A stretch of DNA of 64,000 nucleotides from Bordetella sp. (GCA_022818765.1 CP063810.1:263533-327532); one strand, 5' to 3'; shown: positions 58 to 56,935, counted from the stretch's first letter. Notes: generated by a model not told the origin, from the letters alone. Numbers and translations: made by a program.

Positions 58-776
58 CTAATTAATAATACCAATAAAATCTTTTATTTTAAGAGAGGCT
101 CCGCCTACAAGGACACCATCAATACCTTGCATGGAAAGAAAATTATTGGCATTAGAAGAATTTACACTACCTCCATATAAAACACGCATTTCTGATGTAA
201 TAAATATATTGCGAATAAAAGAAAGAATTTCTTGAACTTTTTCCGGAGTGGCAGATAGTCCTGTTCCTATTGCCCAAAGAGGTTCATAAGCAATTACAAT
301 TGGAGAGGTTAAGTGTAAATTGATAATTGATTCAAGTTGTCGTTTAATAACCGACATTGTCAGGTTAGATTTATATTCATCAAATGATTCCCCTATACAA
401 AGAATTGGAGTTAATCCAACAGATAAAGCTAACTCAACTTTTTTAGCAATAATTTTTTCGTTTTCCCCATGTATAAATCTACGTTCAGAATGTCCTAATA
501 TGACCCATTGGCAGGAAAAATCTTTTAACATGAATGCTGATACTTCACCTGTATATGAGCCTTTAATATGAGCACTCATATCTTGCCCCCCCAAGAAATT
601 GGGCTATTAGATAAAATTTTCTGAGCTTGAAATAAATACGGAGATGGAACACAAATTCCTACTTCATAGTTAGAGGGTATATATGCAGATTTTATTTTTT
701 CTAAAAAAATAGAATTCTCATAAAGATTCCCATTCATTTTCCAATTTCCTAAAACAAGCTTATCAATTTTTTGCAT
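58..776 (-). pseudogene. tpiA: triosephosphate isomerase, interrupted by one frameshift in a G7 run (586-592 on + strand as C7)
   Basis: ORF 576-776 encodes the N-terminus (LVLGNWKMNG...ISWGG). ORF 58-594 continues as GGQDMS..GSYTGEVS..ILGHSERR..AYEPLWAIGTG. Adding 1 nt in the G run joins them as ISWGGQDMS. Confidence 0.85.
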
Positions 777-907
777 AAATTATTAAAAAATAAAATGTTT
801 AAATACAATTAAAAAATAAAAAGCAATGTAATTTAAATTAAATATCAATATCCAAAAAAATCGCTTTAAATCTCAATTTAAATAAGGGAATTGTATGCGA
901 AAATACT

Positions 908-1893
908 TTATGGAACTAATAATATTTTTCCTATATTTTTTCTTTCTTCAATCATTAAATGAGCTAAATGAGCTTTTTCCATAGGAAAAATAGTATGAAT
1001 TATGGGCTTTACAATTTTTTTTTCTAAAAAAGGCCAAACTTTTTTATATAAATCTATAGATATTTTTGATTTAAAAAAACTGATCTATGACGTAAATTAG
1101 AACCTATAATTGTCAGGTTTTTTTTTAACATTTGATTACAATCAATATAGCTAGTTTTTCCTCCAAGAAAAGCTATTAAAGCAATTCGACCATTATTAGA
1201 AAGAATTTTCAAATTCCGATTAATATAATCTCCACCAACCATATCTAGTATTACATCTACACCTAAACCATTAGTTATTTTTTGAATTTCTTCAACAAAA
1301 TCTTTACATTTGTAATTGATGCATTTCTTAGCACCTAAGGTTTCTACGAAATTAGAACGCATATTGCTCCCAGCGGTAGAATATACGATGGAACCCATTG
1401 CAGAAGCTAATTGAATGGCCATTGTTCCAATACCACTAGCTCCTCCATGAACTAACAATTTTTCTCCGATTTTTAATCGAGCTCTTTGAAATAAATTATT
1501 CCATACTGTGAAACAAGATTCAGGCAAAGATGCCGCTTCAATTTCATTCATACCCTTAGGTATTGGCAAACATTGTTTAATAGGAACTGTGCAATATTCA
1601 GCGTATCCTCCTCCAGTAAGTAAAGCACAGACTTTACTTCCTATTTTTAAATTAAAATTTGCAGTTGATTTTATCTTTCCGTCAACAATTTCTCCTGATA
1701 CTTCAAGCCCGAGTAAATCGGAAGAACCAATAGGAGGTGTGTAGTAACCCATTCTTTGAAAAATATCTGCTCTATTTACACCAGCAGCATAAACTTTTAT
1801 CAAAACTTCTCCATGTTTAGGAACAGGTATAGAACAATTTGTAGAAACTAATCCATCAGCATTTCCTGATTTAGAAATTTTTATAGCTTTCAT
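908..1893 (-). pseudogene. qor: NAD(P)H:quinone oxidoreductase (zinc-type ADH superfamily), frameshifted in an A7/T7 run at 1073-1079
   Basis: The 295-aa ORF has MKAIKI...GVNRADIFQRMGYY...GGASGIGTMAIQLA motifs and stops early. The C-terminus (VWPFLEKKIVKPIIHTIFPMEKAHLAHLMIEERKKIGKILLVP*) reads on in another frame down to 908. Confidence 0.8.
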
Positions 1894-2033
1894 GATATCT
1901 ATCAATTGAAATAAAAACTTATAAGTTAAGACTTTTGTCATTTAAAATAATGTTACAAAATGCTATCAAAATTTATTAACTTTTAATCTAGTAAATTTAA
2001 AAAATTAAAAACTTAAATAATATATATATTTTC

Positions 2034-2122
2034 TGGCGGAAGCGGTGAGATTCGAACTCACGGTGGGGATTGCCCACACGGGTTTTCAAGACCCGAGCAT
2101 TAAACCACTCTGCCACGCTTCC
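2034..2122 (-). tRNA. tRNA-Ser (anticodon UGA), long variable arm, CCA encoded
   Basis: The reverse complement folds by hand: acceptor GGAAGCG/CGCTTCC, anticodon stem CGGGT/ACCCG with loop CTTGAAA, T-arm GTTCGAATC, 3' GCCA. Confidence 0.9.
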
Positions 2123-2205
2123 AAATTTATATCTACGGTATACAGAAAATCTATAAAAGTGTTAGAATAACATGGTTTCGATTAATTTGTTCATATTAGA
2201 TTTTT

Positions 2206-2290
2206 GCACCCATGGCGAAATTGGTAGACGCAAGGGACTTAAAATCCCTCGCCGCATGGCATGCCGGTTCGACTCCGGCTGGGTGCACCA
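2206..2290 (+). tRNA. tRNA-Leu (anticodon UAA), long variable arm, CCA encoded
   Basis: Acceptor GCACCCA/TGGGTGC, anticodon stem AGGGA/TCCCT with loop CTTAAAA, T-arm GGTTCGACTCC, 3' ACCA. Confidence 0.9.
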
Positions 2291-2345
2291 CTATCAGTTA
2301 ATTTAAATGGTCATGTTTCAAAAATTAATAAATTCTCTATAAATT

Positions 2346-3371
2346 ATGAGTATATTAGTAACTGGAGGAGCAGGATTTATAGGGAGTAATTTTATATTGG
2401 ATTGGATAGATAAAAAAAATGAGGTTATCGTAAATGTTGATAAATTAAGCTATGCAGGAAACTTGGAAAATCTTTTATCAATAAAAGCAAATCCTAATTA
2501 TTTTTTTATTCAAGGAGATATAAAAGATCGTAGTTTATTAGGTCAAATTTTTTCTAAATTTAAGCCAAGGGCAGTGATAAATTTTGCTGCAGAAAGTCAT
2601 GTTGATCGATCAATTTATATGCCAGATATTTTTATTCAAACAAATGTGGTAGGAACTTTCAATCTGCTTGAAGCAACTCGATCTTATTTTGATTCTTTGC
2701 CAAAAAACTTGAAAAAGTCTTTTCGATTTTTACAAATATCAACTGATGAAATATATGGTTCTTTAAAAATGAATGAACCTCCATTTGTTGAAGAGAACTG
2801 CTATAAGCCAAATAACCTATATAGTGCAACTAAAGCAGCTGGAAATCATCTTTCCAGAGCGTACTATAAAACTTATGAAGTACCAACTATTATTTTGAAT
2901 AGTAGCAATAATTATGGGCCATATCATTTTCCAGAAAAATTAATTCCATTATCAATCGCTAATGCTTTATCTGGAAAATTAATTTCATTATATGGTGATG
3001 GAAAACAAATTCGAGATTGGTTATATGTTAAAGATCATTGCTATGCAATTCGCTTAGTTTTAGAAAATGGCAGTATTGGAGAATCTTATAATATTGGTGG
3101 TCATTGTGAAAAAACAAACGAACAAATAATTGAGATGATTTGTTCGTTTCTGGATCTAGAATATCCACGTACTGATAAAAAAAGTTATAAAAATCAAATT
3201 GTTTATATAAAAGATAGATTAGGACATGATTTTCGTTATTCAATTAACACATCTAAAATAGAAAAAAATTTGGGTTGGAAACCACAAGAAAATTTTGAAA
3301 AAGGCATCAAAAAAACTGTTCGATGGTATATTCATCATATGGAATGGTGGAAAAAACGAATAAATGATTGA
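2346..3371 (+). CDS. rfbB: dTDP-glucose 4,6-dehydratase
   Basis: 341 aa. N-terminal GGAGFIGSN Rossmann motif, YSATKAA catalytic motif, typical RmlB length. Confidence 0.9.
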   Translation: MSILVTGGAGFIGSNFILDWIDKKNEVIVNVDKLSYAGNLENLLSIKANPNYFFIQGDIKDRSLLGQIFSKFKPRAVINFAAESHVDRSIYMPDIFIQTNVVGTFNLLEATRSYFDSLPKNLKKSFRFLQISTDEIYGSLKMNEPPFVEENCYKPNNLYSATKAAGNHLSRAYYKTYEVPTIILNSSNNYGPYHFPEKLIPLSIANALSGKLISLYGDGKQIRDWLYVKDHCYAIRLVLENGSIGESYNIGGHCEKTNEQIIEMICSFLDLEYPRTDKKSYKNQIVYIKDRLGHDFRYSINTSKIEKNLGWKPQENFEKGIKKTVRWYIHHMEWWKKRIND

Positions 3372-4288
3372 TTAAAGTGAAAATTTTATTATTTGGAAAA
3401 GATGGTTTATTGGGAAATGAATTAAAATTTAAATTGGGTCAACTAGGTAATGTAGTTGCTCTAAATCGCCATAAAACAAACTTTCTATCTGGAAATATAA
3501 TTAATTTTGATGAATTAATTAAAACAATTCGAACCTTTAGACCAGATATCGTTGTTAATGCTGCTGCTTATACAAATGTAGAGAAAGCTGAAATTGAATA
3601 TAGATTAGCTTATAAAACAAATTCTGAAGCGCTGGAGATTATATCATATGAAACTCGGGTTCTCGAATCCATACTAGTTCACTATAGTACTAATTATGTA
3701 TTTGATGGGATAAGTAATAAATCTTGGAATGAAGATGATTTTGCCAACCCAATAGGGGTATATGGAAAAAGCAAACTACAAGGTGAAAATATTATTAAAT
3801 CAAGTGGATGTAAATATCTAATATTGCGAACAGGTTGGGTTTATGGAATTCAAGGAAATAATTTTATATCTAAAATCTTACAACTAGCACAAGAAGCAAG
3901 AGAACTTAAAGTAGTAAATGACCAAGTAGGATCTCCAACAAATGTCAGTTTGCTTGCCGATTTAAGCATATATGCTATATGTAAAATTCAAAAAGATGCT
4001 CGTTTATATGGATTGTATCATTTAACTTCATGTGGAATAACTTCTTGGTATGAATATGCATTTTTTATACTGAGTTGGTTTAAAAATAAAGGATTTAATT
4101 TAAAAATTGGTCCAAACCAGATTATATCTATTTCAAGTGATAATTATGCAAAATCAATAAGACCTTTAAATTCTATGTTGAATTGTAATCTCTTTGAAAG
4201 AAAATTTTCCGTAAAGATTCCTCATTGGAAAACAGAAGTTTCTAATTACCTATTGAAGTATAATAATTTTTTATTCAATAAAAATTAA
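3368..4288 (+). CDS. rfbD: dTDP-4-dehydrorhamnose reductase
   Basis: About 300 aa. LLFGKDGLLG N-terminus, NAAAYTNVEKAE and YGKSKLQGE motifs typical of RmlD. Start uncertain (TTG 3368 or GTG 3377). Overlaps the rfbB stop. Confidence 0.85.
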   Translation: MIKVKILLFGKDGLLGNELKFKLGQLGNVVALNRHKTNFLSGNIINFDELIKTIRTFRPDIVVNAAAYTNVEKAEIEYRLAYKTNSEALEIISYETRVLESILVHYSTNYVFDGISNKSWNEDDFANPIGVYGKSKLQGENIIKSSGCKYLILRTGWVYGIQGNNFISKILQLAQEARELKVVNDQVGSPTNVSLLADLSIYAICKIQKDARLYGLYHLTSCGITSWYEYAFFILSWFKNKGFNLKIGPNQIISISSDNYAKSIRPLNSMLNCNLFERKFSVKIPHWKTEVSNYLLKYNNFLFNKN

Positions 4289-4313
4289 TATTTTTTTGTT
4301 CTGGAAAAATTTA

Positions 4314-4865
4314 ATGCATATTACCTGTACAGATATACATGATGTACTAATCATACATGCGAAAATTATCAAAGATAATCGTGGTTTTTTCTCAGAAATT
4401 TTCAATATTCATAAATTTTATAGCCTGACAGGATTAAAACATGTAAGTTTTGTTCAAGAAAATCACAGCAAAAGTAAAAAGGGTGTATTGCGTGGTTTAC
4501 ATTATCAATTAAAACATCCACAAGGCAAGTTAATTCGTGTAATAAATGGAAGTATTTTTGATGTTGCGGTAGACCTTAGAAAAAGTTCAGATACTTTTGG
4601 AAAGTGGGTTGGTATAGAACTAAATGATAAAAATTTGTTACAAGCTTGGATACCACCTGGTTTTGGTCATGGCTTTATGGTAACAAGCGAATCTGCGGAC
4701 GTCATATATAAGACTACAGATTATTATTTTCCAGAATATGAAAATTGTATAACTTGTTTTGATCCAAATATTTCAATCAAATGGCCAAATACTAACACAA
4801 AAATTACCTTATCTGAACGAGATCAAAAAGGTAAAAGTATTTTTGCATCAGATGTTTTTGAATAA
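4314..4865 (+). CDS. rfbC: dTDP-4-dehydrorhamnose 3,5-epimerase
   Basis: DNRGFFSE, RGLHYQ, GKLIRV..G.IFDVAVDLR and PPGFGHGF motifs of RmlC. ATG at 4314 preferred over the upstream alternative start at 4296. Confidence 0.9.
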   Translation: MHITCTDIHDVLIIHAKIIKDNRGFFSEIFNIHKFYSLTGLKHVSFVQENHSKSKKGVLRGLHYQLKHPQGKLIRVINGSIFDVAVDLRKSSDTFGKWVGIELNDKNLLQAWIPPGFGHGFMVTSESADVIYKTTDYYFPEYENCITCFDPNISIKWPNTNTKITLSERDQKGKSIFASDVFE

Positions 4866-9632: not shown

Positions 9633-10631
9633 TTATTTTTTAATTAAAGAGAAATCTGAAAAATGATCAAAACCATTATTAGGTAATGGTTCTAATTTTG
9701 AACCTTGGAAATTCATTACATTTAAATGGTTGATTCTATCAGTTATATAGCCAATCATAGTGATTGGAATATTTAAATTTTTAGATATTTTTTTTATTTT
9801 CTTATGATTCTTAGGATCCGCTGTAAAACATAATTCATAAAGATCCCCACCCGATAAAACAGATTCCTGTAGAATTCTTTTAGGTAAATTAGATAAATAT
9901 GGATCAATAGGAATGGAGGAGTAAGATATATTTGCTCCAACTTGGCTAGAAAACAATATATGTCTAAGATCTTGCAATAATCCATCAGAAATATCGATAG
10001 CAGCATTAGCTATACTGTCTTCTGCTAATACTTGACCTAAATTTAAACGGGCGTTTGGCCATTCTAAAGTTGATCGGATTTTTTCAAGAAGAGGGATATT
10101 AGGTAATATCTTTCCAGATAATAAACGATAAGCAATATCAGGAGCCCCAAATGTGCCCGATACCCAAATTTCATCTCCTACTTTTGCTGCATCACGTCGT
10201 AATATTTTAAGTGGAGAGATTGATCCAAATACCGTAACATTTATAAAAATACCATTATTGCTCCGTGCAATATTTCCACCTATCAAAAAACATTCTTGAA
10301 ATTGAGCTGATTTATGAAATTCATTAGAGAATTTTTCTAACCAATTTTCATCAATATAAGGTAATGCTAAACTTAGCAAACATCCTATAGGTTTTGCTCC
10401 CATAGCAGCTAAATCTGATAAATTTATAATTAATGCTTTATGTCCTAGAGAACTTGGATCTACATTTGAAAAGAAATGACGTCCTTCAATCAATATATCA
10501 GTGCTTGTTACAACGTTTTCTCCAACAGGAACTGAAAATACAGCACAATCATCCCCTTTTAAGAAAGATGTATTTATAGGAAATTTATCAAAAAAATACT
10601 TTTTAATAATATCAAATTCAGAAATGGACAT
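9633..10631 (-). CDS. thiL: thiamine-monophosphate kinase
   Basis: 332 aa. EFDIIKKYF, GDDCAV, NLSDLAAMGA, DISDGL motifs. Confidence 0.9.
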   Translation of the reverse strand: MSISEFDIIKKYFFDKFPINTSFLKGDDCAVFSVPVGENVVTSTDILIEGRHFFSNVDPSSLGHKALIINLSDLAAMGAKPIGCLLSLALPYIDENWLEKFSNEFHKSAQFQECFLIGGNIARSNNGIFINVTVFGSISPLKILRRDAAKVGDEIWVSGTFGAPDIAYRLLSGKILPNIPLLEKIRSTLEWPNARLNLGQVLAEDSIANAAIDISDGLLQDLRHILFSSQVGANISYSSIPIDPYLSNLPKRILQESVLSGGDLYELCFTADPKNHKKIKKISKNLNIPITMIGYITDRINHLNVMNFQGSKLEPLPNNGFDHFSDFSLIKK

Positions 10632-10661
10632 TTTATATAATCGGTTTCTAAAAAATCATTT

Positions 10662-11171
10662 TTACATAAATTCATTATTTAATTTTGAAGAACGAATAAC
10701 TGTTGCTAATTTATCTAAAACCCCATTGATAAACCTAAATCCTTCTGAACCACCAAATAATTTTGCTAATTCAACTGCTTCATTTATAGTGACTTTATGA
10801 GGTATCTCGAAACGATAAATCAATTCAAAACTGCCGATCAATAAAATTGAATGTTCGACTGGAGATAAATCTTTAAGATTTCTATCAGCACACAATAGGA
10901 AAGATTCTCGAAGTTTTCTTGAATGATTTAATACTCCATAAAGAAGAATATAAAACCATTCCATATCAACTTTTGAAAAATCCCAAGATTTGATTAAATG
11001 ATTGATCTCAGAAGGATCTTGTGTTTCATGGTTAATTAACCATGAATAAATTCCCTGAACTGCAAATTCACGTGCACGTCTACGTGCACTTCGCCTATTG
11101 CGATACCTATATTGTTCATCTTTAAATTTTTCTTTACTTTCTTTCTTCATTACAAGTTTAATATCTTTCAT
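10662..11171 (-). CDS. nusB: transcription antitermination factor NusB
   Basis: [18 protein letters not shown]-terminal signature. ribH-nusB-thiL order conserved. Confidence 0.9.
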
Positions 11172-11175
11172 AAAT

Positions 11176-11649: not shown

Positions 11650-11668
11650 AAATTTCTTTTTACATTTT

Positions 11669-19598: not shown

Positions 19599-20241
19599 GT
19601 GAATTTTAATTTTTCTTTATTGATCAATACATTAATTTTAATTTTATTTTCTTATTTAATTGGATCTATCTCATTTGCAATAATAATAAGCAAAATCCTT
19701 GTTTTAAAAGATCCTCGTTTTTATGGTTCTAAAAACCCAGGAGCGACTAATATGCTCCGAATAGGATCAAAAACAGGTGCTGCCTTAACATTTTTAGGTG
19801 ATATTTTAAAGGGTTGGATTCCATTGTATTTTTCCAAAATTTTAATTCCTAATTTACCGTTGATCAATTATTCAATAATTGCAATTGCTGTCTTTTTAGG
19901 ACATCTGTATCCAATTTTTTTAAAATTTAAAGGGGAAAAGGAATTTCTACTTCCCTAGGTGTTTTGTTTGCTATAAATCCATTATTAGCATTTATAGTTT
20001 TAATAACTTGGCTAGTTTTAGCATTTTTATATCGTTATTCATCCTTAGCATCATTAACTTGTGCTTTATTATGCCCTATTTTTTATATGATTGGATCAGG
20101 ATTATTTTGGAATGGAGAAACTCCAATTACAGGTATTATAATTCTTATGAGTATATTGATTATTCATAGACATAAAAAAATATTAATCGTCTTATGAACG
20201 GACAAGAAGAACAAATTTTTGGAAAAAAAAATCAAATTTAA
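19599..20241 (+). pseudogene. plsY: glycerol-3-phosphate acyltransferase PlsY with two frameshifts (G4 at 19932-19935; A7 at 20174-20180)
   Basis: ORF1 has GSKNPGATN and ends at [10 protein letters not shown]. One extra G gives the canonical [19 protein letters not shown], joining ORF2. One extra A restores the C-terminus HKKNINRLMNGQEEQIFGKKNQI*. Confidence 0.8.
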
Positions 20242-25286: not shown

Positions 25287-25300
25287 ATCGTTATAATTGT

Positions 25301-26055: not shown

Positions 26056-26074
26056 AATAATTTCATTAAGGATT

Positions 26075-28005: not shown

Positions 28006-28029
28006 TAATTGAAACCTTTTATATATTTA

Positions 28030-32430: not shown

Positions 32431-33366
32431 AGTGATACAAATTCCTTATTTCATGATTTTTCTAGACAAATAATAATTATTTATCTAGTTTTTTTTTAAA
32501 GTATTAAATAAGTGAAAAACCATTCTCACTAAAATTTTAAAGTAAGTATCAAATCAATAGTCATTGAAATATTTTATAAATTTTGTTCTGATAATTTCAT
32601 TTTTATTTTGATAAAACTCGTCCTTTTTATAAAAAAATTATTGATAGTGGAATCTTTGATTAAACAAAATCTTTTAAATGATATTAATTTTAAGAAGCTA
32701 TATATGTAATGTTTTAATCCTTAATGAAAAATAATGTAGAAATGTATCAATCATTAATAATCATCCAATGGAATAATCAAAAACTTTTAAAGAGGATAGA
32801 AATGATATAATTCCATCTGAATCTTTATTGTCAACGTTTCTTAACGCTTTAAAAATCAAATATATTTTCTTATTGCAAAAAATTTTACTAAATATACTTA
32901 ATATGAATATTAAAAATTAATTAAATTTGGACATCTGTGCTATTAAAATAATTAATTTTTATTGATTATGTTGTAATTTTAAATCTAAAATTAATGAAAT
33001 TTAAATTCAAGTTTTATTTATTAAGATTATTTAACAGTCAGTTTTTTGACATTGAAAATAACGAGTTGTCTATTTTACTATTGAATAGCCTATCTTATTT
33101 TAAGCACATTTAAATAGATTATCATGTTTTAAGCATAATTAAACTGGATAGAATTTCTGATATCTAGAAACGATAAATTTAATTTTAATGAAAGTTTGCT
33201 CAAATTTTGATATGTGTTTAAACTTATTTTTTAATTTTGTCAATTGTTTTAATTATGGTTTTAAAATTTAGCTATATATATTAATATCAGCATTGTAATT
33301 CAACATTCTAACTTCAGATTCATATCCAGAATCTGGAAAGATTGTTATTAAATTAATAAAAAATTG

Positions 33367-33425
33367 TTTCATCAAAATTTAGTAAAAATTCAAGACTGTA
33401 TAATTTTTACTAAATTTTGATGAAA
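33367..33425. repeat. perfect 24-bp inverted repeat with 11-nt spacer (long hairpin/cruciform)
   Basis: Left arm TTTCATCAAAATTTAGTAAAAATT (33367-33390). Right arm AATTTTTACTAAATTTTGATGAAA (33402-33425) is its exact reverse complement. Confidence 0.9.
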
Positions 33426-33628
33426 TCAATGTTATCATTAAAGACTATGCATGATATGTCCTTTTTTTGAATTTTGATTTTGTAAAACTCTTTAAACAAA
33501 AAAGTAAGGGGTAGTTTTTTATATTTTTAGAAAATTTCTATATAATTGTTGCTAACAATCTACTATGAAATTTCTTTTCTACTGAAATTTTTCTTCTCTT
33601 TCTTATTCATCCGATAATCGTTAATCCA

Positions 33629-34884
33629 ATGCACTTGAATGAACTAAAGACACTGCATGTTTCTCAGTTGTTAGAAATAGCTGCAGGTCTGGAAATCGAT
33701 AACGCAAACCGCTTGCGAAAGCAAGAATTGATGTTTTCTATAATGAAGCGACGAGCAAAACATGGAGAACAAATATTTGGTGATGGAGTTCTTGAAGTTT
33801 TACCAGATGGTTTCGGATTTCTACGCTCTGCTGAAACTTCATATCTGGCGAGCACAGAAGATATTTATATATCACCATCACAAATTCGACGATTTAATCT
33901 TCATACGGGAGATTCTATTGAAGGTGAAGTTCGAACACCAAAAGATGGGGAAAGATACTTTGCTCTTATTAAAGTAGATACAGTTAATGGAGTAGCTCCT
34001 GAAACAATTAAACATCGAATCATGTTTGAAAATCTCACTCCATTGCATCCAGATCAACCTATGCGTTTAGAACGTGATATTAAGAGTGAAGAAAATTTAA
34101 CTGGTAGAATTTTAGATATATTTTCTCCAATTGGAAAAGGTCAAAGAGGTTTGATTGTTGCAAGTCCAAAATCTGGAAAAACTGTAATGATGCAACATAT
34201 TGCACATGCAATAACAACAAATTTTCCTCATTCAGTCATGATTGTTTTATTAGTGGATGAACGTCCAGAAGAAGTAACAGAAATGCAGCGAACTGTTCGA
34301 GGGGAAGTAGTGGCTTCTACATTTGATGAGCCTGCCACTCGGCATATTCAGGTAGCTGAAATGGTAATAGAAAAAGCAAAACGTTTGGTTGAGATGAAAA
34401 AAGATGTTGTAATTTTATTAGATTCTATTACACGATTAGCTCGTGCTTATAATACAGTTGTACCTGTTTCAGGAAAGATCTTAACAGGTGGAGTAGATTC
34501 AAATGCTTTACATCGCCCAAACGTTTTTTTGGTGCAGCACGAAACTTAGAAGAAGGTGGATCGTTAACAATTTTGGGGACAGCTTTGATAGAAACTGGTA
34601 GTCGTATGGATGAAGTGATTTATGAAGAATTTAAAGGAACGGGAAATTCAGAAGTTCATCTTGAGCGTCGATTAGCTGAAAAGCGTGTTTATCCAGCTAT
34701 TAATCTTAATAAATCCGGAACTCGTCGAGAGGAATTGTTGATTAGGAACGAATTTTTTCAAAAAGCTTGGGTGTTGCGAAAATTTATTCATGATATGGAT
34801 GAATTACAATCAATGGAATTTATACTTGATAAAATGCGTTCAACAAAAACCAATGCTGAATTTTTTGAAATGATGAAAAAATAG
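33629..34884 (+). pseudogene. rho: transcription termination factor Rho, one frameshift at 34519-34530 (AAA/T7 context)
   Basis: ORF1 (306 aa) carries the N-terminal, RNA-binding and P-loop regions (ASPKSGKT) and ends at [15 protein letters not shown]. Adding one nt gives the canonical [49 protein letters not shown], continuing into ORF2. Confidence 0.85.
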
Positions 34885-42803: not shown

Positions 42804-45568
42804 TTATAAATAACGTGTAACTTCTTTAATTGCAAAAATTTCTAATTGGTCTCCAGAGAATACATCAATATTCCCTCGAAGCATTATTCCACAATCAAAG
42901 CCAGATTTTACCTCTTTTACATCATCTTTAAAACGACGCAGAGAAGCAATCTCACCTGTCCATTTTACTACATTATTTCGAAGTAATCTGACTTGTGAAT
43001 CACGTCTTACCAAACCATTTAAGACCATACATCCACCGACATTTCCAATCTTAGGAATATTATAAACTTCACGAATTTCTACTAAACCAATAACTTCTTC
43101 GCGTTTTTCAGGGCTTAATAATCCAGCCATAGCTGATTTAATATCATCAATAACATCATAAATAATATTATAATAGCGTAAATCAACATTATTGACTTCT
43201 ACTATCTTCTTAGTATTTATCTCAGCTCTTACATTAAAACCTACAATTACAGCATGAGAAGCAATCGCAAGATTTATATCATTCTCTGAAATTCCCCCAA
43301 CTGCGGCATGTATTATTTGCACACGAACCTGATCAGTTGATAATTTAGTTAAAGAAGAGATTAGAGCTTCTTGAGATCCCTGAACATCTGTTTTAATAAT
43401 AAGTTTAAGAATTTTACTATCATACTTGGAATGATCATCCATGATTTCTAGCATGGACTGCATATTAGCTTCTCTTTGCCGAGCAAGTTTTACATCACGA
43501 TATTTACCTTGACGAAATAAAGCAATTTCTCTAGCTTTTTTCTCATCTTTTAAAGAAATTAATTCATCACCAGCTACTGGAACATCATTTAAACCTTGTA
43601 TTTCTACAGGAATTGATGGTCCTACACTTTGAACAGAATTTCCATGTTCGTCTAGCATCGCACGAACACGACCAAAACTAGATCCTGCTAACACAATATC
43701 TGCAAGTCGTAAAGTCCCACTTTTTATTAATACTGTAGCAACAGGTCCTCTTCCTCTATTTAATCTTGACTCTATAACTAAACCTCTTGCATTAGTAGAT
43801 AATGGAGCTTTTAATTCAAGCATTTCAGATTGCAACAAAATATTTTCTAAAAGATTATCTATACCTTCTCCTGTTTTTGCTGATACAGGTATAATTGAAA
43901 CATCCCCTCCATATTCTTCAGACACAACCTCTTCAGCAAGTAACTCTTGCTTTATTTTCTCTATATTTGCTTCAATTTTATCTATTTTTGTAATAGCAAC
44001 TACAATTGGAACCTCAGCTGCTTTTGCATGATGAATAGCTTCACGTGTTTGTAACATTACAGAATCATCTGCAGCTATAACCAAAACAACAATATCAGTC
44101 GCTTTAGCTCCACGAGCCCGCATAGCAGTAAAGGCTTCATGACCTGGTGTATCTAAAAAGGTAATCGAACCGTTATCTGTTTGAACATTATAAGCCCCTA
44201 TATGTTGAGTAATACCTCCAGCCTCATTGATTGCAATTTTTGCTCGTCGAATATAATCCAGAAGAGAAGTTTTTCCATGATCGACATGGCCCATAACAGT
44301 TACAACAGGCGCTCGATGAAACGAATCTTTTTCTTTATCAAAATTAATTTGCTCATCTAAAAAAGACTCAGGATCATCTAATTTAGATGGAATGGCAACA
44401 TGACCAAATTCTTCTATAACAATCATTGCTGTTTCTTGATCAAGAATCTGATTAATTGTAACCATTTGACCTAATTTCATTAGCTGCATAATAACTTCAG
44501 CTGCTTTGATAGACATTTTATGAGCAATGTCTGCAACACTTATAGTTTCAGGAATATATATTTTCCGAGAAATAAAATCCTGTACTTTTGATTCATTTCG
44601 ATCATTGTTAGTTTTTTGATTTCGATTGCTGCGTTGATTTTTTCCTGTTTTTAATTTCTCAGAACGATTAGAAATTATATGTTCTTTTCCATGACTTTTT
44701 TTGTTCACTACACTATTTCTAGTAAATGTTTTTCAATGATCTTAATATTTTTAGGAACTACAGATGATCGCTTTTCTTCTTTTTTTTCAATTATTTTATC
44801 CTGATTATTCTTTCGAGGTGATTTATTAATTAAGCTTTTTGAAACTATTTCTTTTTTAGAAATCGTTGATTCTTTTTTCGGTTGATTTAACATGTCCATC
44901 AAAGCTTTAGATTGCTGCTGAGTTGCATCTCTTGATTTAGAATATTTTACATTAAGACTTTTATTTTCTTGTTCATCAAAAGACGAAATTGCTGTTTTAG
45001 AATGAAAATCTGATTTTTCCAAGTTATTTTTTGCAGAATCTATAGGATTGCTAACTTTCATATTAATGCTTTCTTCTTTTTTGTCTGTTGATTCTGAATC
45101 ACTAATATTATCTTTTTCTTGTTTTAAATTCAGCATTTCTGCTTTTTTCTGATTTTGTGAGGATTTTTCCAAATGATCTTGTAAATTTACAGTCTTAAAA
45201 TCTTCTGAAATAGGAACTGCACTATCTACTATATTTTCAATATTTTTTGATTGAAACTCTGAAAAATCTCTCTTAACAAAAGTTCTTTTTTTTCTAATTT
45301 CTATTTGAATAGTTCGAGATCGTCCTAAAGAATCAGCTTGCCGGATCTGAGAAGTTTCTCGTCGAGTTAGAGTGATCTTTTTTCGATTATTAGATTCCCC
45401 ATATGAACTACGTAAAGACCCAAGCAATTTTGACTTATCATTTTCAGTGAGAGAATCATTTACAGATTTAACATCTACCCCAGCTGATCGAAGCTGTTCT
45501 AATAACACATTAGAAGGAATATTCAATTCAAGAGCCAACTGGGTAACTGTACTGCTTAATATTAGCAT
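42804..45568 (-). pseudogene. infB: translation initiation factor IF-2, split into a 286-aa N-terminal ORF and a 634-aa core ORF
   Basis: The upstream ORF has the IF2 N-domain (TVTQLA.EL......LLEQL..AG) and a K/E/S-rich linker. The downstream ORF has the IF2 core ([34 protein letters not shown]) through the C-terminus. The frames differ by one nt. The junction window is 44708-44740 and includes a T5/A5 run at 44729-44733. Confidence 0.85.
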
Positions 45569-45607: not shown

Positions 45608-47089
45608 TTACAAGTCTTTTTCAAACCAGTGAGCCCGAGCAAGTGTAATAATTTCTGCTGCTTTTTCTTTAGTCAGACCTGTAATTTCTATTACTTCATC
45701 TACTGAAAGTTCTGCAAGATCATTCCTTGTTAAAATATTTTTCTCAACAAGTAGAATTGCTAGATTTGGTGTTATGAAATCTAATTCAAGCAAATCATGA
45801 GCTAATTTTAGATGTTCTTCTTTCGCAATTGCTTCAGTTAAAAGAATATTGCGTGCGCGCGCTCGTAATTCAGTTACAAATTTTTCATCAAATGATTGGA
45901 TCTCTAGCAATTCCTGAATAGGAATATATGCAATTTCTTCAATTCCAGTAAATCCTTTATCAATTAAAATATTTGCAATTTCATCATCAATATCAAGGTT
46001 TTTAGTAAAAATATTTCTTAGTTCAATGCGTTCTGTTTCCTGTCTATTTACGCTTTCCTCCGGACTCATGATATTTATTTGCCATCCAGTTAACTCAGAA
46101 GCTAATCTTACATTCTGTCCTTTGGTACCTATTGCTTTTGGCAAATTGTCTTCATCAACAACAACTATCATAGAATGATTATCTTCATCAACAACTATGG
46201 ATTCTATATTAGCAGGAGCTAAAGCGTTAATTACAAATTGTGCTGGATCCTCTGACCAGAGAATAATATCAATCTGTTCACCACCCAATTCATTCCGAAC
46301 TGCTGTAACACGTGATCCTCTCATTCCGACACAAGTACCAATTGGATCAATTCGCTTATCATATGCAACAACTGACATTTTTGCACGAATACCAGGATCA
46401 CGTGCAGCCCCTTTAATTTCTAATATGCCTTGTTCAATCTCTGGAACTTCATTCTCAAATAAAAACCGAATAAATTCAGGAGACGTACGAGATAAAATAA
46501 CCTGTTGTCCTCTAGCTATATGATCAACACGGAGAACAAAAGCACGAATACGATCTGCCATTCTTATATTTTCTTTTGGCATCATTTCTGATTTGGGTAA
46601 TCTGGCTTCTATTTTTCCGATTTCTACAATTGCATCACCCTTATCCATTCTTTTAACTGTTCCTGATACAATGGTTTCCCCACGTTCAAGAAACTCATTA
46701 AGCAACTGCTCACGCTCAGCATCTCGCATTCGTTGGAGTATAGTTTGTTTTGCTGTTTGTGCACCAATACGCCCAAATGATATATTTTCCAATCGCTTTT
46801 CTATGTATTCCCCAACTTTAATATCTTGGCAAATTTCTCGAGCATCTGATAACATTTCCTGACTATCTGGTTGATCTAATCCATTTTCATCAGGTACAAC
46901 CAACCATCTCCTAAAGCTTTCATAATCTCCTGTATTTCGATTAATACAGACGCGAATCTCCGCTTCATCATTGAAGCGTTTTTTTATTGCCGAAGCAAGA
47001 GCGCTTTCTAATGCATTAAAAACAACTTCACGGACAACATTTTTTTCTCGTCCTAGAGCATCAACCAATAGAAGAATTTCACGACTCAT
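45608..47089 (-). CDS. nusA: transcription termination/antitermination factor NusA
   Basis: 493 aa. MSREILL.VDAL..EK N-terminus, S1 and KH domains, C-terminal acidic repeats. Confidence 0.9.
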
Positions 47090-47728: not shown

Positions 47729-49485
47729 TCATTTATGATCATTTTTCCAAAATCCTAAATGAGATTCATGAGCCGAAGCACTGCTTGGCTGTTTATCATC
47801 ATTTGAAAATTTTCTATGTTTACTCGGAATATTATTTATATTCTTTTTTCCTGTTAAGTTAGATTTTGGAACAACTCTTTTTATTTGTTTTATTTTCGAA
47901 TTATTTGTATGATGAGTTGCTAATTGTTTTGTAGATTTAATGGATAAAGATGAAGCAGGAACTTGAAATTGTTCTTCAGAATTTTTGTTATCAACAACGT
48001 TGGATACATTTACATTGCTTATATTTTTTGAGTTATTTTCTTGAAATTCAGTTTTAGTAGTTAAATTTTTTCTTGAATTAGAAGATCTTACTCTCCGAAA
48101 GTCATCTCGAATCAGTTGAGGTCTTCTCATATCATATCTCAGATTTTTTTTTCGCCCTTTATTATCATTTATTGCTAATGGATGTCCATTAGCATAACCT
48201 CCGTTTACCATTAAACCTGTTTTAGAAAATTTCTGTTGATGATAATCGTTTGATATGCTAAAGCGAGAAAATGAAGTTTGACGAGAATTTCGGATTACAC
48301 CTGTTCTGCTCAGTTTAGCTCCATTCATACCATTATTTTCTATAGTACCAAAGCCAGGAGGCAAAGCACTATCATGAGAAATAGGTTGTTTTGAATATTT
48401 CCTATTTCCGCTCAGATTAGTTTCTGTATTTTTACTAGATTTTAACAAACCTAATTGTGTCATTAAAGCAATTACTATATTTTCATTTAATTCAGTCCAT
48501 CTCCCCTTCGAAGACCACGGGGTAAAGTAATATTACCAAAACGAGTACATATTAAGCGATTTATTTTACAACCTATAATCTCAAAGATACGATTTATATC
48601 TCTATATTTACTCTCATGTAAGACTAATTTATACCATTGATTAGCACCATCTCCACCAACATAATCAAAAGAAGTTATAGAAATTGTCTTTTCTTGGCCG
48701 ATATTTACATCTTTTTCGATCAATAATTTATATTTTTCATCGTTTACTTCTCCTAAAATACGAACAAAGCATTCTCGTTCAGTTTTATATCTAGGATGAA
48801 CAATACGATTAACTAAATCTCCCGAAGTCGTAAATATCAATAGTCCCTCTGTATTAATATCTATTGCATTAACAGGATTCCATTTTCCATTTCGCAATTT
48901 TGGTAAACGAGAAAAAATATTATCGGTTTCATTTAAATTTTTTTGATCAATAGACTCACCTGAAATCTTGTGATAGATAATAATTCGTGGAATCTTTATT
49001 ATTTTGTTTCGATTAATCGGTCTTCCATTCACTTTGACTAAATCTTTTTGACCAATTCTTTGTCCAATATGAGCAGGCTCTCCATTAACGGAGACTCTGC
49101 CTGAAATAATCAAATCTTCCATATCACGACGTGATCCTATACCAGACTCAGCAAGGATTTTATGTAATTTTGGTAAAATTTCTTCATTATTTAAATATTT
49201 TTTTAAACGTTGAGCTGTTCTATCAGAAGTTTCTAAAAAAGAAAAAATTTTCTCTTCATCAGAAGAATATTCAATAGCTGGTACAGATAACGAATTTTCC
49301 TGATATCTACTACTATTAGATTCATATTCATTAGTGAATGCGTCTCCACGACGTCGCCTAAATGGCGTACGAAGTTTTCTTCCTCGACTGCGGCTTAAAG
49401 AATCCTCAATTGGTTTTAGATAAGATAAAACAGGTTTTTTTTCATTTTGTAAGGATTTGTTTTTCTGAACAACTTTAGTTATCAC
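47729..49485 (-). pseudogene. rluB: 23S rRNA pseudouridine(2605) synthase RluB, frameshifted in a G4 run (C4 at 48503-48506 on + strand)
   Basis: ORF1 has the S4 domain (LHKILAESGIGSRRDMEDLI..GRV.VNG) and a RsuA/RluB catalytic core, and ends at LRRGDGLN*. One extra G gives LRRGRWTELNENIVIALMTQLGL, which runs into the 244-aa basic low-complexity tail ORF. Confidence 0.8.
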
Positions 49486-52865: not shown

Positions 52866-52900
52866 ATTTTTACCTTCGATTTTTAATATTTATATTTTTA

Positions 52901-53924
52901 TTGATATGTAACCTTGAAAAATTTCACTCTTATTTTTATTTTATGCCTTTTGATAAGTTTATGTTTTCATATATCAATGCCCTTGATATATATAAAAAAT
53001 ATTTTCAGTATGAAGAAAAAATTGTAAATAAATCTATTCTTTCAAATTTCATAGATAAATATGAAATAGATATTGCAAAAAAATTTTATGAGATATTTAT
53101 TGTTGTAATCATGACTTTAATTGGAGGATTACAAGCTATAAATCAATATTTTGAAGCTGATCATTGTAATGGTTTTCTAAAACAAATTCTGATTTTGGTG
53201 TTTTTTAGTCTCTTATTAAAAATATTTGACATACTGTTTATTTTTTTCTCTAAATTTATAATTAATATTTATAATTCCTTTAACAAAATTGAATTAACAC
53301 TATTAAAAATTTTAACTTTTTTATCCTTTGTAATGGAAGTTTTTTTATATTTTTTACTGCTTTATTTAAAATCTAACATTGGGAAATATTGGTGGTTATG
53401 GTTTTTTTGTATTGTGAATATACAGAATATTATTCTTTTATTGTTTTTCATTTTAGGAACCAAATTTATTTTTTAATAGAAAAAAAATCTTTTTATAGAA
53501 AATTTTGTTATGCGTTACTAACGATTAACATTATTTTGGAAAATCCTTGGATGTTTTATCGAATTAATTTAATAGATTTTTATATTCTTAGAAAGAATAA
53601 CCTTTTTTTTAAAAAAATTTTTGTAAATTATCTTTAAATAGTTCAAAAAAAATTACGAATATTAAATTTTTTTATTTTATAAAAAACATTTTTCTTAAAA
53701 AATTAATATTTAACTTAATTGAAGTATGTATTTGTATAGTTACAATAGAGTTTTTATCAAAAAAAATTTGGTTTTATGAAGGATTGGGAATTTTTCCAAA
53801 AATAAATGGTACAAATTACGAAATAACATTAACTATATTAATAGTTGTAATATTACCTTTATTTTCATCTTTATTTTACCAAATAAAGAGTATATTATTT
53901 CTTAAAAATAAAGGTAAAAACTAA
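52901..53924 (+). pseudogene. heavily eroded relic, tentatively of a Ste24-type M48 membrane metallopeptidase
   Basis: The 191-aa ORF is TM-rich with TLIGGLQA and GKYWWLW motifs that I associate with the N-terminal membrane domain of M48/Ste24 peptidases. No HExxH appears in any downstream frame. The remaining 450 bp has only short broken frames, including ...KIWFYEGLGIFPK...ILPLFSSLF... ending at 53924. Confidence 0.35.
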
Positions 53925-53927
53925 TAA

Positions 53928-54302: not shown

Positions 54303-54495
54303 TCGGATACCTAATTAGCACATCAAATCAAATAGTTAAAAAACATTTAAAACAAAAAAAATTTTCCTTGCTTTAAATTCAGTTGGGAATTATAAGTAAA
54401 ATAAATCTTTTCTTCAATTAAAGTTTTAATACAAAAAATCATTTCCTTAAAAAGAAAAAAATCACAAGACTAAATATACATGATTTAATTTCAAA

Positions 54496-55138
54496 TTAAA
54501 AATCTGGTTGTGGGGTAAATCTTAAATATGGAAGAATAGTTTCCTCATTTTCAGGAAGTTTTCTTTTAATATTGTTGTTTTCATCATTTTCAGCTGGTGG
54601 AATTATAACTTTTTCGCCATTCTTCCAATTTGCAGGTGTAAATACACCATATTTATCTGTTAACTGAAGAGAATCAATCGTTCGAATAATTTCATCAAAA
54701 TTTCTCCCAGCGCTAGAAGGATAAATGAATATCAAACGAATTTTTTATTTGGATCAATAATAAAAACTGAACGAACAGTAAGTATAGGATCTGAATTAGG
54801 ATGAATCATACCATAAAGATTAGAAACTTTTCTATCAACATCTGCTATTATTGGAAAATTAATATTATATGATTGTATTTGATGGATATCTCCTATCCAT
54901 TTTAAATGCAATTTTACAGAATCTATTGACAAAGCAAGAACTTTTATATTTCTTGCCAAAAATTCATTGGAAAGTTTCGCAATATAACTTAATTCAGTAG
55001 TGCATACAGGTGTAAAATCAGCGGGATGAGAAAATAATAATCCCAATCTTTTCCAAGATATTCGTAAAAGTTAATCATCCCAATGGATGAAATTTGTTTA
55101 AAATTCGGAGCTATATCTCCAAGATATAATTGACTCAT
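54496..55138 (-). pseudogene. 1-Cys peroxiredoxin (Prx6-like) with two frameshifts (G3 run at 55042-55044; A6 run at 54741-54746)
   Basis: Three consecutive ORF pieces: LGDIAPNF...EYLGKDW / GLLFSHPADFTPVCTTEL...IIDPNKK / [26 protein letters not shown]. Each junction is repaired by adding one nt. Confidence 0.8.
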
Positions 55139-55246
55139 TCTATATATCCTAAAAGGATTACCCAACATATTTTTGAATATTTTCAAATAATTATACCTAA
55201 AATTTAATTTTCATTCTCTCTCTGTGTTAAAAAAATCAAATAATTC

Positions 55247-56185
55247 TCAATCATCTGATAAAGCATTAATAAGTTTAGGTAATATTTCAAGTAAATCTCC
55301 AATGATATAATAATCAGAAATATTAAGAATAGGAGCTTTCATATCATTATTAATAGCTACTATTATTTTAGAATTTTTCATTCCAACTATATGTTGAATT
55401 GATCCTGAAATTCCAATTGCTATATAAAGTTTCGGAGAAACAATTTTACCTGATTGACCGATTTGCCAACTTTTTTCTGCATATCCAGATTCAATTGCCG
55501 CTCGGGAAGCTCCTATAGCTGCTTTTAATCTTTGAGCTAAGATCCTTAAAATTTTAAAATTTTTAGCATTTTTGAATCCTTTCCCTCCTGCAACGATAAT
55601 ATCTGCGTTATTTAAATCATTAAAATTATTTATATTAGTTTGATAACTAATTAAAGAAGACATACAAACATTAGGAAGAGCCTTGATACTTTCTATTACA
55701 GCTGATCCTGTATAATCTTCTATTGATTCAAAACTTGCAGGACAAATTGTAATTACTTTGATTTTATCATGTGATTGAACGGTAGCAATTACATTACCAG
55801 TATATATAAAACGACAAAAAATATTATCTGATTTTATATCAATAACTTCAGAAATTTGAGAAACATCAAGAATAGCAGCAACTCTTGGTGCTATATTTTT
55901 ACCAAAGGATGTAGCTGGGAATAAAATATGATTATAAGAAAAAGCAATAGTGAAAATCTGAAGTGAAAAATTTTCAGAAAGTGGATGATATAAATGTGAA
56001 GAATCGATAAAAAAAACTTTGGAAATTCCAAAAATTCTAGCTGCCTGTTTTACTATTTTTAAAATGTTAAATCCAATAACTAAAATATGAATTTCATTTC
56101 CTAATTTAATAGCAGCAGAAATAGTACTAAATGTCGATGATTTTAGGTTAAAATTATTATGTTCAGCAACAACTAATGTAACCAT
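55247..56185 (-). CDS. etfA: electron transfer flavoprotein subunit alpha
   Basis: 312 aa. C-terminal FAD-binding signature (GASRAA.ESGY......IGQSGK.V.P.LYIA.GISGSIQH..GM). Confidence 0.9.
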   Translation of the reverse strand: MVTLVVAEHNNFNLKSSTFSTISAAIKLGNEIHILVIGFNILKIVKQAARIFGISKVFFIDSSHLYHPLSENFSLQIFTIAFSYNHILFPATSFGKNIAPRVAAILDVSQISEVIDIKSDNIFCRFIYTGNVIATVQSHDKIKVITICPASFESIEDYTGSAVIESIKALPNVCMSSLISYQTNINNFNDLNNADIIVAGGKGFKNAKNFKILRILAQRLKAAIGASRAAIESGYAEKSWQIGQSGKIVSPKLYIAIGISGSIQHIVGMKNSKIIVAINNDMKAPILNISDYYIIGDLLEILPKLINALSDD

Positions 56186-56186
56186 T

Positions 56187-56935
56187 TCAGATTACTTTAG
56201 CTTCATTTTTAAGTTTAGTTAACAAAGATTCTACATCTTTTACTCTAGTTTGTAATCTATGCTTATAAAATTTAGAGAGGTTTAATATATGTAAACGTTT
56301 TGAAACATCTATTTTAAAATCCTCTAATTTTATTATTTCAATAAGTTTACTTTTTGCTTGTATAATATTTTTCAGATGAATATAGCGTGGTTTATTCAAA
56401 TATAAACTGCTAGTAATAATAGAAGGTAAGTTCATTTTAATTGTTTCATATCCTTCATCAACATCGCAATTTACTATAACGCTGTTTTTAATTAATGTAA
56501 GTTTGCTAACAGAAATCGCTTGAGGAATGTTAAGTAGGGCACTTAACATCTGGCCTGTCTGATTTGCATTATTATCTACAGATTTTGAACCAAGAAATAT
56601 TAAATCAGGTTTTTCTTTTTGAACTAAAATTTTAGTATTTTAGCAACAGATAAGGGCTCTAAATCACAATCTGTAGAAACCAGTATACTTCGATCAACAC
56701 CCATAGCCATTGCAGTGCGAAGAACTTTATTACATTCTAAATCCCCACAAGATACTGCAACTATTTCCTTAGCAATACCTTGTTCTTTTAAACTTACAGC
56801 TTCTTCTACAGCGATCTCATCATAAGGATTCATAGATGTTTCAATATTTGAAACATCTATGGAACAGTTATCTAAATTTAATTTTATCAACTCATCCTGA
56901 TCTATAACCTGTTTTATAGAAACTAATATTTTCAT
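56187..56935 (-). pseudogene. etfB: electron transfer flavoprotein subunit beta, frameshifted in an A4T4 tract (56626-56633)
   Basis: The N-terminal ORF MKILVSIKQV....NPYDEIAVEEA ends at AKILKF*. One extra nt gives KILKILVQKEKPDLIFLGSKSVDNNANQTGQMLSALLNIPQA, joining the 120-aa C-terminal ORF. Confidence 0.8.

What the first reader, a model, noticed from the sequence alone, without database searches (positions are those of the whole stretch)
586..56633. Ten frameshifts in eight otherwise intact genes, every one a 1-nt shortfall inside a homopolymer
By hand translation, each of these genes is read through correctly if exactly one nucleotide is added in a run.
- tpiA: G7 at 586-592.
- qor: A7 at 1073-1079.
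- plsY: G4 at 19932-19935 and A7 at 20174-20180.
- rho: AAA/T7 at 34519-34530.
- infB: A5 at 44729-44733.
- rluB: G4 at 48503-48506.
- 1-Cys Prx: G3 at 55042-55044 and A6 at 54741-54746.
- etfB: A4T4 at 56626-56633.
None needs a removal, none carries an in-frame stop, and conserved motifs are intact on both sides of each break. Ten of ten in one direction, hitting essential genes (rho, infB, plsY, tpiA), is not what random gene decay looks like. The genuinely eroded relic at 52901-53924 shows the contrast. There are two explanations. One is systematic homopolymer under-calling in the assembly, which would make these annotation artefacts. The other is a real deletion-biased mutational spectrum, with function rescued by transcriptional or translational slippage or by split products, as described for poly(A) tracts in insect endosymbionts. 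Runs as short as G3-G4 make slippage rescue unlikely and favour the artefact, but that cannot be decided from the sequence.
Basis: partly seen in the sequence, partly recalled or inferred. Interest (0 to 1): 0.75.

Follow-up and report, generated by a model that had tools for sequence, protein, structure and literature searches.

The report
Likely homopolymer sequencing errors, not pseudogenes
Ten one-base gaps that break eight otherwise perfect genes in this small symbiont genome are real features of the deposited sequence, but they most likely come from under-counted base runs in an unpolished assembly rather than from biology.

Summary
All ten runs are at the stated coordinates. Every junction needs +1 nt. 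Each repaired gene gives a full-length protein that aligns without a gap across the break. The other ~49 genes in the window are intact, and no lesion of the opposite sign exists.

Three corrections:
- The rho gap is in the A3 run (34519-34521), not the T7.
- The infB gap cannot be pinned to one run.
- In most cases the missing base is a third codon position, so its identity is unknown.

The window comes from a single 866,396-bp GenBank MAG labelled 'Bordetella sp.': a 30% GC, reduced Alcaligenaceae symbiont with no close relative in any database searched. No independent copy could be compared.

Best explanation (~0.87): false deletions in an uncorrected long-read consensus.
- 1,667 codons downstream of the shifts hold no stop, whereas off-frames close after ~10 codons.
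- The true pseudogene nearby is eroded beyond recognition.
- 14% of genes are hit.
- Run lengths of 3-7 nt match published Nanopore R9.4 error profiles.
- Four sites lie in G/C runs and none in an A/T tract of 9 or more, so slippage rescue fails for most sites.

Reads or resequencing are needed to close the question. Interest is low.

The parts
58..776 (-). tpiA, split at the C7 run 586-592 (G7 on the gene strand). Allowed interval for the missing base: 576-603.
   Evidence: The repaired 239-aa protein aligns gap-free with Burkholderia TIM across ...ISWGGQDMSAH... This is the only G/C run longer than 5 in the whole window.
908..1941 (-). qor (PIG3-type quinone oxidoreductase), split at the A7 run 1073-1079 (T7 on the gene strand). 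Allowed interval: 1054-1084.
   Evidence: TIGR02824, 1-326 on 1-323/325; gap-free over ...RHRSVFFKSKISIDL.... An in-phase T TTT TTA heptamer is present.
19599..20241 (+). plsY, split twice: at G4 19932-19935 and at A7 20174-20180.
   Evidence: (TIGR00023, 5-194/196). Both junctions align gap-free with Aquifex PlsY: FKGGKG and HRHKKNINRL.
33629..34884 (+). rho, split at the A3 run 34519-34521. The neighbouring T7 at 34524-34530 is not the site.
   Evidence: Inserting A gives 418 aa aligned 1-418 without a gap to E. coli Rho, with [12 protein letters not shown] identical. Neither rho fragment is among NCBI proteins.
42804..45568 (-). infB, split within 44708-44732. That interval holds most of the T5/A5 run (44729-44733) and two 3-nt runs. 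The break lies in the variable N-terminal linker.
   Evidence: (TIGR00487 aligns to aa 334-919, all downstream of the break).
47729..49485 (-). rluB, split at the C4 run 48503-48506 (G4 on the gene strand), just after the catalytic domain.
   Evidence: (LPRGLRRGRWTELN against E. coli LPKGLPRGGWTELD, gap-free).
54496..55138 (-). 1-Cys peroxiredoxin, split twice: at C3 55042-55044 and at T6 54741-54746.
   Evidence: It is 65% identical over 213 aa to a 214-aa Pigmentiphaga Prx. DWGLLFSHPADFTPVCTTEL and [11 protein letters not shown] are restored.
56187..56935 (-). etfB, split at A4T4 56626-56633. Allowed interval: 56624-56639.
   Evidence: gap-free with human ETF-beta over ...AKILKFLVQKEKPDL.... 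Both fragments are absent from NCBI proteins.
52901..53637 (+). True, old pseudogene: relic of an M48-family peptidase. This is the contrast case.
   Evidence: PF16491 N-terminal domain only, 5e-9. (all three frames full of stops beyond 53476, no HExxH region left).
32431..33628 (.). 1.2-kb spacer with no ORF above 39 aa. This is fully eroded DNA and shows that dead sequence persists in this genome.
   Evidence: no RNA family or tRNA.

Best explanation
The ten frameshifts are consensus errors of the deposited assembly, namely false single-base deletions at or next to short homopolymers. Such errors are typical of an uncorrected long-read (most likely Nanopore R9-type) assembly of a symbiont MAG. 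In the living organism tpiA, qor, plsY, rho, infB, rluB, prx and etfB are ordinary intact genes.

Shown here:
- the lesions are all +1-needed;
- they are all at runs;
- they are the only defects in these genes.

Inferred: that the missing bases are absent from the consensus only, not from the DNA.
For: 1. **Pristine reading frames.** The 1,667 codons downstream of the shifts contain no stop in the proper frame. Off-frames of intact genes stay open for 9.7 codons on average (maximum 53). This caps neutral divergence since all the shifts at about 1.2%.
2. **No intermediate decay.** The only other dead DNA in the window is eroded beyond recognition. The eight genes carry no stop, no lesion of the other sign and no truncation.
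3. **Direction.** 10 of 10 are deletions (P=0.002). In a Nanopore R9.4 assembly most indel errors were false deletions (PMC12007338).
4. **Run lengths.** Observed runs are 3-7 nt. Published false deletions sit at homopolymers of 2-8 nt, most often after 4-5. By contrast, none of the 8 coding A/T runs of 9 or more is shifted, which replication or transcription slippage would hit first.
5. **Density.** 8 of 57 genes (14%) are affected. An uncorrected R9.4 assembly had 23% pseudogenes, 89% of them frameshift-only. Blochmannia has only 4-8 such genes per whole genome.
6. **Source.** The window comes from one 866,396-bp contig of a MAG. Four of four intact proteins are known only from NCBI, with no copy from assemblies of public read sets. 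That fits noisy long reads or undeposited reads.
7. **Essential functions.** Rho and PlsY are cut within their conserved cores.
Against: - No reads, no second assembly and no close relative could be found. The best hits were 52% identity for PolA, 67% for Prx and 77% for NusA, and two metagenome DNA scans were empty. So the extra bases were never seen.
- The sequencing platform is unknown. Small repeat-poor symbiont genomes can also close with Illumina or HiFi data, and ten such errors in 64 kb would then be very unlikely.
- The sites are clumped. Three neighbour pairs lie under 500 nt apart (P~0.02). Two 645-nt genes carry two hits each (P~0.001 post hoc). Real pseudogenes collecting second lesions could look like this.
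- All 28 coding A/T runs of 8 or more are in frame, so under-calling is sporadic, not systematic.
- Real homopolymer slippage in repair-poor endosymbionts also favours runs, and G/C runs in particular.
Confidence: 0.87

Rival explanations
1. The deletions are real and very recent. A repair-poor symbiont under strong drift has just lost or split these eight genes through replication slippage. Some functions are kept by split products, for example IF-2 translated from the 634-aa downstream ORF, or RluB truncated after its catalytic domain. Others are supplied by the host.
For: - The genome does contain true dead DNA.
- Real indels in endosymbionts occur almost only in repeats and homopolymers (PMC3622351).
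- G/C runs are over-represented, 4 of 10 against 8% of runs (P=0.005).
- plsY and prx carry two lesions each.
- The infB and rluB breaks lie outside the conserved cores.
Against: - All eight genes would have to be younger than about 1% divergence, while no older or partly decayed pseudogene exists in the window.
- There are no insertions, stops or larger deletions.
- None of the 8 coding A/T runs of 9-11 nt is hit, although slippage rises steeply with run length.
- Extrapolated, the genome would hold about 110 such genes, which is unprecedented for an 0.87-Mb genome (compare).
- Rho and PlsY are cut inside their cores.
Confidence: 0.09
2. The deletions are real and the genes stay functional. 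Full-length products are made by transcriptional slippage or by -1 ribosomal frameshifting at the runs, as proposed for poly(A) tracts in Blochmannia and Buchnera.
For: - The downstream frames are conserved as if under selection.
- Three sites carry an in-phase X XXY YYZ heptamer: G GGG GGC in tpiA, T TTT TTA in qor and C CCA AAC in rho.
Against: - The described cases involve A/T tracts of 9 nt or more. Here the longest run is 7, four are G/C runs of 3-7, and one is A3.
- Transcription insertions rise exponentially with A/T run length, total about 1e-5 per nucleotide, and no frame-restoring event was seen in Buchnera (PMC5574713).
- Seven of the ten sites have no slippery heptamer.
Confidence: 0.03
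3. Mixed case. The run lengths are truly polymorphic within the polyploid symbiont population, and the consensus caller picked the shorter allele.
For: The G7/G8 tract in tpiA would be hypermutable. GGG is only 5.7% of Gly codons here, so such a tract is unusual. Otherwise this reading rests on inference only.
Against: There is no reason for ten independent loci, including A3 and G3 runs, all to have a majority frameshift allele. Nothing in the sequence can test it.
Confidence: 0.01

Closest known systems
Gene-fragmenting homopolymer indels in uncorrected long-read (Nanopore R9.4-type) assemblies and MAGs (PMC9262707; PMC12007338)
   Same: - Single-base false deletions dominate.
- They sit at homopolymers 2-8 nt long, most often 4-5.
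- Genes are otherwise intact and are flagged as frameshifted pseudogenes.
- Ten to twenty-odd percent of genes are affected.
   Different: The platform of this assembly is not known to me. All 28 coding A/T runs of 8 or more are in frame, which is better than expected for a raw R9 consensus. No reads could be checked.
Frameshifts in poly(A)/poly(T) tracts of Blochmannia and Buchnera, possibly corrected by transcriptional slippage (Tamas et al. 2008, from memory; PMC3017870)
   Same: An AT-rich reduced endosymbiont genome with single-base frameshifts in runs inside genes that otherwise look intact, including information-processing genes.
   Different: - There the tracts are 9-12 nt of A/T, and only 4-8 genes per genome are affected.
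- Here runs are 3-7 nt, 4 of 10 are G/C, and 8 genes are hit in 64 kb.
- Conservation of the shift among strains cannot be tested.
Ordinary gene erosion in obligate symbionts (homopolymer indel as first hit, then decay)
   Same: The first lesion type and its sequence context agree. A real example of late-stage decay lies in the same window (52901-53637).
   Different: The eight genes show no second kind of lesion and no loss of similarity downstream.
Programmed -1 ribosomal frameshifting (dnaX type)
   Same: A -1 shift is the direction needed. Three sites have a formal in-phase slippery heptamer.
   Different: Seven sites have none. The heptamers follow trivially from a 7-nt run or from CCC+AAA. 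No stimulatory element was sought or seen.

Membership tests
Homopolymer indel artefact of an error-prone assembly | Lesions are single-base indels located at homopolymers | tested here: met
   Enrichment at runs: P=1e-5 (runs of 3 or more) and P=1.6e-4 (runs of 6 or more).
Homopolymer indel artefact of an error-prone assembly | Strong excess of false deletions over insertions | tested here: met
   10 of 10 need +1 nt (sign test P=0.002). No -1-needed lesion anywhere in the window.
Homopolymer indel artefact of an error-prone assembly | Affected genes otherwise intact and conserved on both sides | tested here: met
   (1,667 downstream codons without a stop).
Homopolymer indel artefact of an error-prone assembly | Consensus built from uncorrected noisy reads | not testable with these tools
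   Only indirect evidence: a single 866,396-bp MAG contig, and proteins known from NCBI only, not from assemblies of public read sets.
Homopolymer indel artefact of an error-prone assembly | Accurate reads or an independent assembly show the extra base | not testable with these tools
   No second copy of this organism was found. Protein searches. Genome loci. Metagenome DNA scans. Exact gene look-ups.
Poly(A)-tract frameshift rescued by transcriptional slippage (Blochmannia/Buchnera type) | Frameshift lies in a long A/T tract (9 nt or more in the described cases) | tested here: not met
   The longest affected run is 7. Four are G/C runs and one is A3. Compare.
Poly(A)-tract frameshift rescued by transcriptional slippage (Blochmannia/Buchnera type) | Frameshift conserved between strains or species without decay of the gene | not testable with these tools
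   No relative closer than 52-77% protein identity.
Poly(A)-tract frameshift rescued by transcriptional slippage (Blochmannia/Buchnera type) | Mixed mRNA pool with corrected transcripts | not testable with these tools
   Needs cDNA data.
Programmed -1 ribosomal frameshifting | In-phase slippery heptamer X XXY YYZ at the shift site | tested here: not met
   Present at tpiA, qor and rho only. Absent at the other seven sites.
Programmed -1 ribosomal frameshifting | Stimulatory element (upstream SD-like sequence or downstream structure) | not tested
   Not pursued, because the heptamer test already failed for most sites.
Decaying pseudogene of an obligate symbiont | Mixed lesions (stops, indels of both signs, truncation) and loss of similarity | tested here: not met
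   Not met for the eight genes. Met for the M48 relic at 52901-53637.

The most novel reading that the evidence does not exclude
The deletions are truly in the DNA of a deep-branching, 0.87-Mb Alcaligenaceae symbiont. That organism keeps about one gene in seven, including rho, plsY and infB, in a -1-frameshifted state at runs as short as 3-4 nt, while the downstream frames remain under selection. This would require an unknown genome-wide correction or tolerance mechanism, for example unusually slippery transcription or translation, or complementation among genome copies.
Probability: 0.03. Interest if true: 0.8.

Novelty: not a real feature. Interest (0 to 1): 0.12.

Why it matters
**If the artefact reading is right.** The matter is one of data quality. 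A public 'complete' MAG would carry on the order of a hundred false pseudogenes. That would distort any metabolic reconstruction or gene-loss inference for this symbiont: apparent loss of glycolysis (tpiA), phospholipid synthesis (plsY), Rho termination and ETF. The record should then be polished or corrected with frameshift-aware tools.

**If the deletions proved real.** Intact downstream frames at short G/C and A/T runs in essential genes would point to an undescribed rescue mechanism and would be of high interest.

Tried and rejected
1. **Looking for an independent copy.**
   - Exact gene look-ups for NusA, EtfA and PolA found nothing on record.
   - The genome-contig scan with NusA returned only free-living Alcaligenaceae at 71-77% identity.
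   - Protein searches with PolA and with the repaired Prx found no hit above 52% and 67% other than the record itself.
   - Two metagenome DNA scans across the rho and prx sites with a variable run length gave 0 matches.
2. **Finding the source paper or platform.** Five literature searches and one candidate paper did not identify the MAG.
3. **An eleventh disruption in serC.** Rejected. The ORF simply runs off the window end.
4. **A hidden C-terminal frameshift in rsmD.** Rejected.
5. **-1 ribosomal frameshifting as a general rescue.** Rejected. In-phase heptamers occur at only 3 of 10 sites.
6. **Systematic compression of all long runs.** Rejected. A/T run counts fall smoothly from length 3 to 9, and 28 coding runs of 8 or more are in frame.
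7. **Measuring erosion of the M48 relic against orthologues.** No orthologue lies in the fetched loci.
8. **How the public record treats the fragments.** The rho and etfB fragments, which have unambiguous starts, are absent from NCBI proteins. For fragments with ambiguous starts the test is not conclusive.


Full report
**What the window is.**
The window has 30% G+C and about 89% of it is coding. It holds some 57 protein genes and four tRNAs.
- Its DNA polymerase I is 100% identical to GenBank UOF94135.1, 'MAG: DNA polymerase I [Bordetella sp.]', from a single contig of 866,396 bp.
- NusA, EtfA and TypA are UOF94016.1, UOF94026.1 and UOF94011.1 of the same contig.
- The next best PolA is 52% identical (Achromobacter). 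NusA reaches 77% and Prx 67%.
- So this is a strongly reduced, AT-rich member of the Alcaligenaceae with no sequenced close relative. It is presumably an obligate symbiont (inference from size and composition).

**The observation.**
- For every junction I derived the interval in which the frame change must occur and the frame relation. In all ten, the long downstream frame is the one reached by adding one base.
- Adding one base per site yields complete products without internal stops.
- Each product matches its NCBIfam model from end to end as one stretch.
- Residue-level alignments are gap-free over nine junctions:

| Gene | Compared with | Restored sequence |
|---|---|---|
| Rho | E. coli Rho | [12 protein letters not shown] identical |
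| TpiA | Burkholderia TIM | |
| PlsY (both sites) | Aquifex PlsY | FKGGKG and HRHKKNINRL |
| EtfB | human ETF-beta | |
| Qor | 4dup | |
| RluB | E. coli RluB | |
| Prx (both sites) | a Pigmentiphaga Prx | |

- The tenth junction, in infB, lies in the non-conserved linker of IF-2. The N-terminal 100 aa and the C-terminal 610 aa align with Alcaligenaceae IF-2 on either side.

**Refinements to the observation.**
- The rho break is in AAA (34519-34521), not in the adjacent T7. Only an added A restores Lys-Arg.
- The infB interval of 25 nt contains three runs of 3 nt or more, so the A5 assignment is not unique.
- In at least seven cases the missing base is a third codon position. Its identity is therefore free: it may have been a different base that interrupted or followed the run. 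One example is GGN GGG becoming G7 in tpiA. GGG is only 5.7% of glycine codons here.
- The association with runs is nevertheless far beyond chance.

**Completeness of the survey.**
I annotated all other ORFs. Every one covers its family model at full length.
- An apparent half serC is only cut by the window end.
- rsmD is complete.
- No lesion needing the removal of a base exists in the window, so 10 of 10 stands (P=0.002 two-sided).
- Two stretches are truly dead. One is a 1.2-kb spacer without any ORF above 39 aa upstream of rho. The other is the relic at 52901-53637, where only the N-terminal membrane domain of an M48 peptidase is detectable and the remainder is full of stops.

**Evidence that separates artefact from biology.**
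1. **Freshness.** The 1,667 codons that follow the ten shifts hold no stop in the proper frame. Off-frames of intact genes close after 9.7 codons on average. About 250 stop-creating changes would be expected per substitution per site, so the shifts would all have to be younger than about 1.2% neutral divergence.
2. **Bimodality.** There is nothing between 'one missing base' and 'eroded beyond recognition', although dead DNA evidently persists in this genome.
3. **Density.** 14% of genes are hit. That extrapolates to roughly a hundred genes genome-wide. Blochmannia genomes have 4-8 homopolymer-frameshifted genes in total.
4. **Run lengths.**
   - The affected runs are 3, 3, 4, 4, 4, 5, 6, 7, 7 and 7 nt. 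Four are G/C, although G/C runs are 8% of runs (P=0.005).
   - None of the eight coding A/T runs of 9-11 nt, and none of the twenty 8-nt runs, is out of frame.
   - Replication and transcription slippage rise exponentially with run length, so real slippage should have struck the longest tracts first.
   - In a Nanopore R9.4 assembly, most indel errors were false deletions. [quoted passage not shown] They made 23% of genes pseudogenes, 89% of these frameshift-only.
   - Nanopore consensus indels in homopolymers are a well-known cause of fragmented gene calls unless polished.
5. **Rescue mechanisms fail.** No tract reaches the 9 nt or more of the described poly(A) cases. No frame-restoring transcription error was seen even in Buchnera. 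Only three sites have an in-phase slippery heptamer.

**Evidence that keeps the question open.**
- I could not see a single read or a second assembly.
- I could not find the paper or the platform. A small repeat-poor genome can also close with accurate reads, and the artefact reading would then collapse.
- The sites are clumped (P~0.02), and the two doubly hit genes are both short (P~0.001 post hoc). This could reflect local dips in depth or quality. It could also reflect second lesions in real pseudogenes.
   - The infB break precedes the entire conserved core. A 634-aa downstream ORF could give a shortened IF-2, as E. coli does with its IF2-beta/gamma isoforms (own knowledge).
   - The rluB break follows the catalytic domain.
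   - A host-dependent symbiont might tolerate loss of tpiA, prx, qor or etfB.
   - Rho and PlsY, however, are cut inside their cores.

**Weighing.**
- The pattern is typical for an unpolished noisy consensus.
- For real biology it would be without precedent in a genome of this size.
- Even with a modest prior that the assembly is unpolished long-read data, the artefact reading comes out near 0.87.
- Real recent deletions get about 0.09, real deletions with rescue about 0.03, and within-population length polymorphism about 0.01.
- The public record appears to treat at least rho and etfB as untranslated pseudogenes. Their fragments, which have unambiguous starts, are absent from NCBI proteins while their neighbours are present.

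**Verdict.**
The feature is most probably not biological. Its practical meaning is a caution about this MAG's pseudogene calls. Interest is low unless accurate reads confirm the short runs.

Noticed in passing
whole window (e.g. 37989-40706, 45608-47089): The source is a single 866,396-bp MAG labelled 'Bordetella sp.'. Its proteins are only 52% (PolA), 67% (Prx) and 77% (NusA) identical to the nearest Alcaligenaceae. It is therefore a deep-branching, reduced, 30% GC lineage with no sequenced relative, and the genus label is doubtful.
   Followed up: partly
32431-33628: A 1.2-kb spacer upstream of rho has no ORF above 39 aa and no RNA family hit. It is apparently fully eroded former coding DNA.
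   Followed up: partly
52901-53637 (to 53927): True pseudogene: relic of an M48 peptidase. Only the N-terminal five-helix domain is recognisable (PF16491, 5e-9) and the catalytic part is lost.
   Followed up: yes
586/1076; 19934/20177; 54744/55043: The frameshift sites are spatially clumped. Three neighbour pairs lie under 500 nt apart (P~0.02), and both doubly hit genes are only 645 nt long. Possible causes are local depth or quality dips, or secondary lesions. This is unresolved.
   Followed up: partly
62926-62936 and 27 other coding sites: The longest homopolymer (T11, inside pheA) is in frame, and so are all other coding A/T runs of 8 or more. Any under-calling is therefore sporadic, and the longest tracts are spared.
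   Followed up: yes
34516-34522, 1072-1078, 585-591: Formal in-phase -1 slippery heptamers occur at three break sites: C CCA AAC in rho, T TTT TTA in qor and G GGG GGC in tpiA. They are probably a trivial by-product of the runs.
   Followed up: partly
2346-4865: The dTDP-rhamnose genes rmlB, rmlD and rmlC are adjacent and intact. rmlA, which usually sits in this cluster, is not there.
   Followed up: no
57061-64000 and 9633-12790: The window retains aromatic amino-acid genes (serC, pheA, tyrA, aroA) and vitamin genes (ribBA, ribH, thiL). It also keeps a complete Mrp cation/proton antiporter at 24978-30909. This gene set would suit a nutritional symbiont.
   Followed up: no
37989-40706 vs 36109-37932: PolA has protein accession UOF94135.1, while its immediate neighbour TypA is UOF94011.1 and NusA is UOF94016.1. 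The accession numbers are thus not in map order for PolA. The numbering between RimP and EtfA suggests that some fragments or relic ORFs are annotated as proteins.
   Followed up: no
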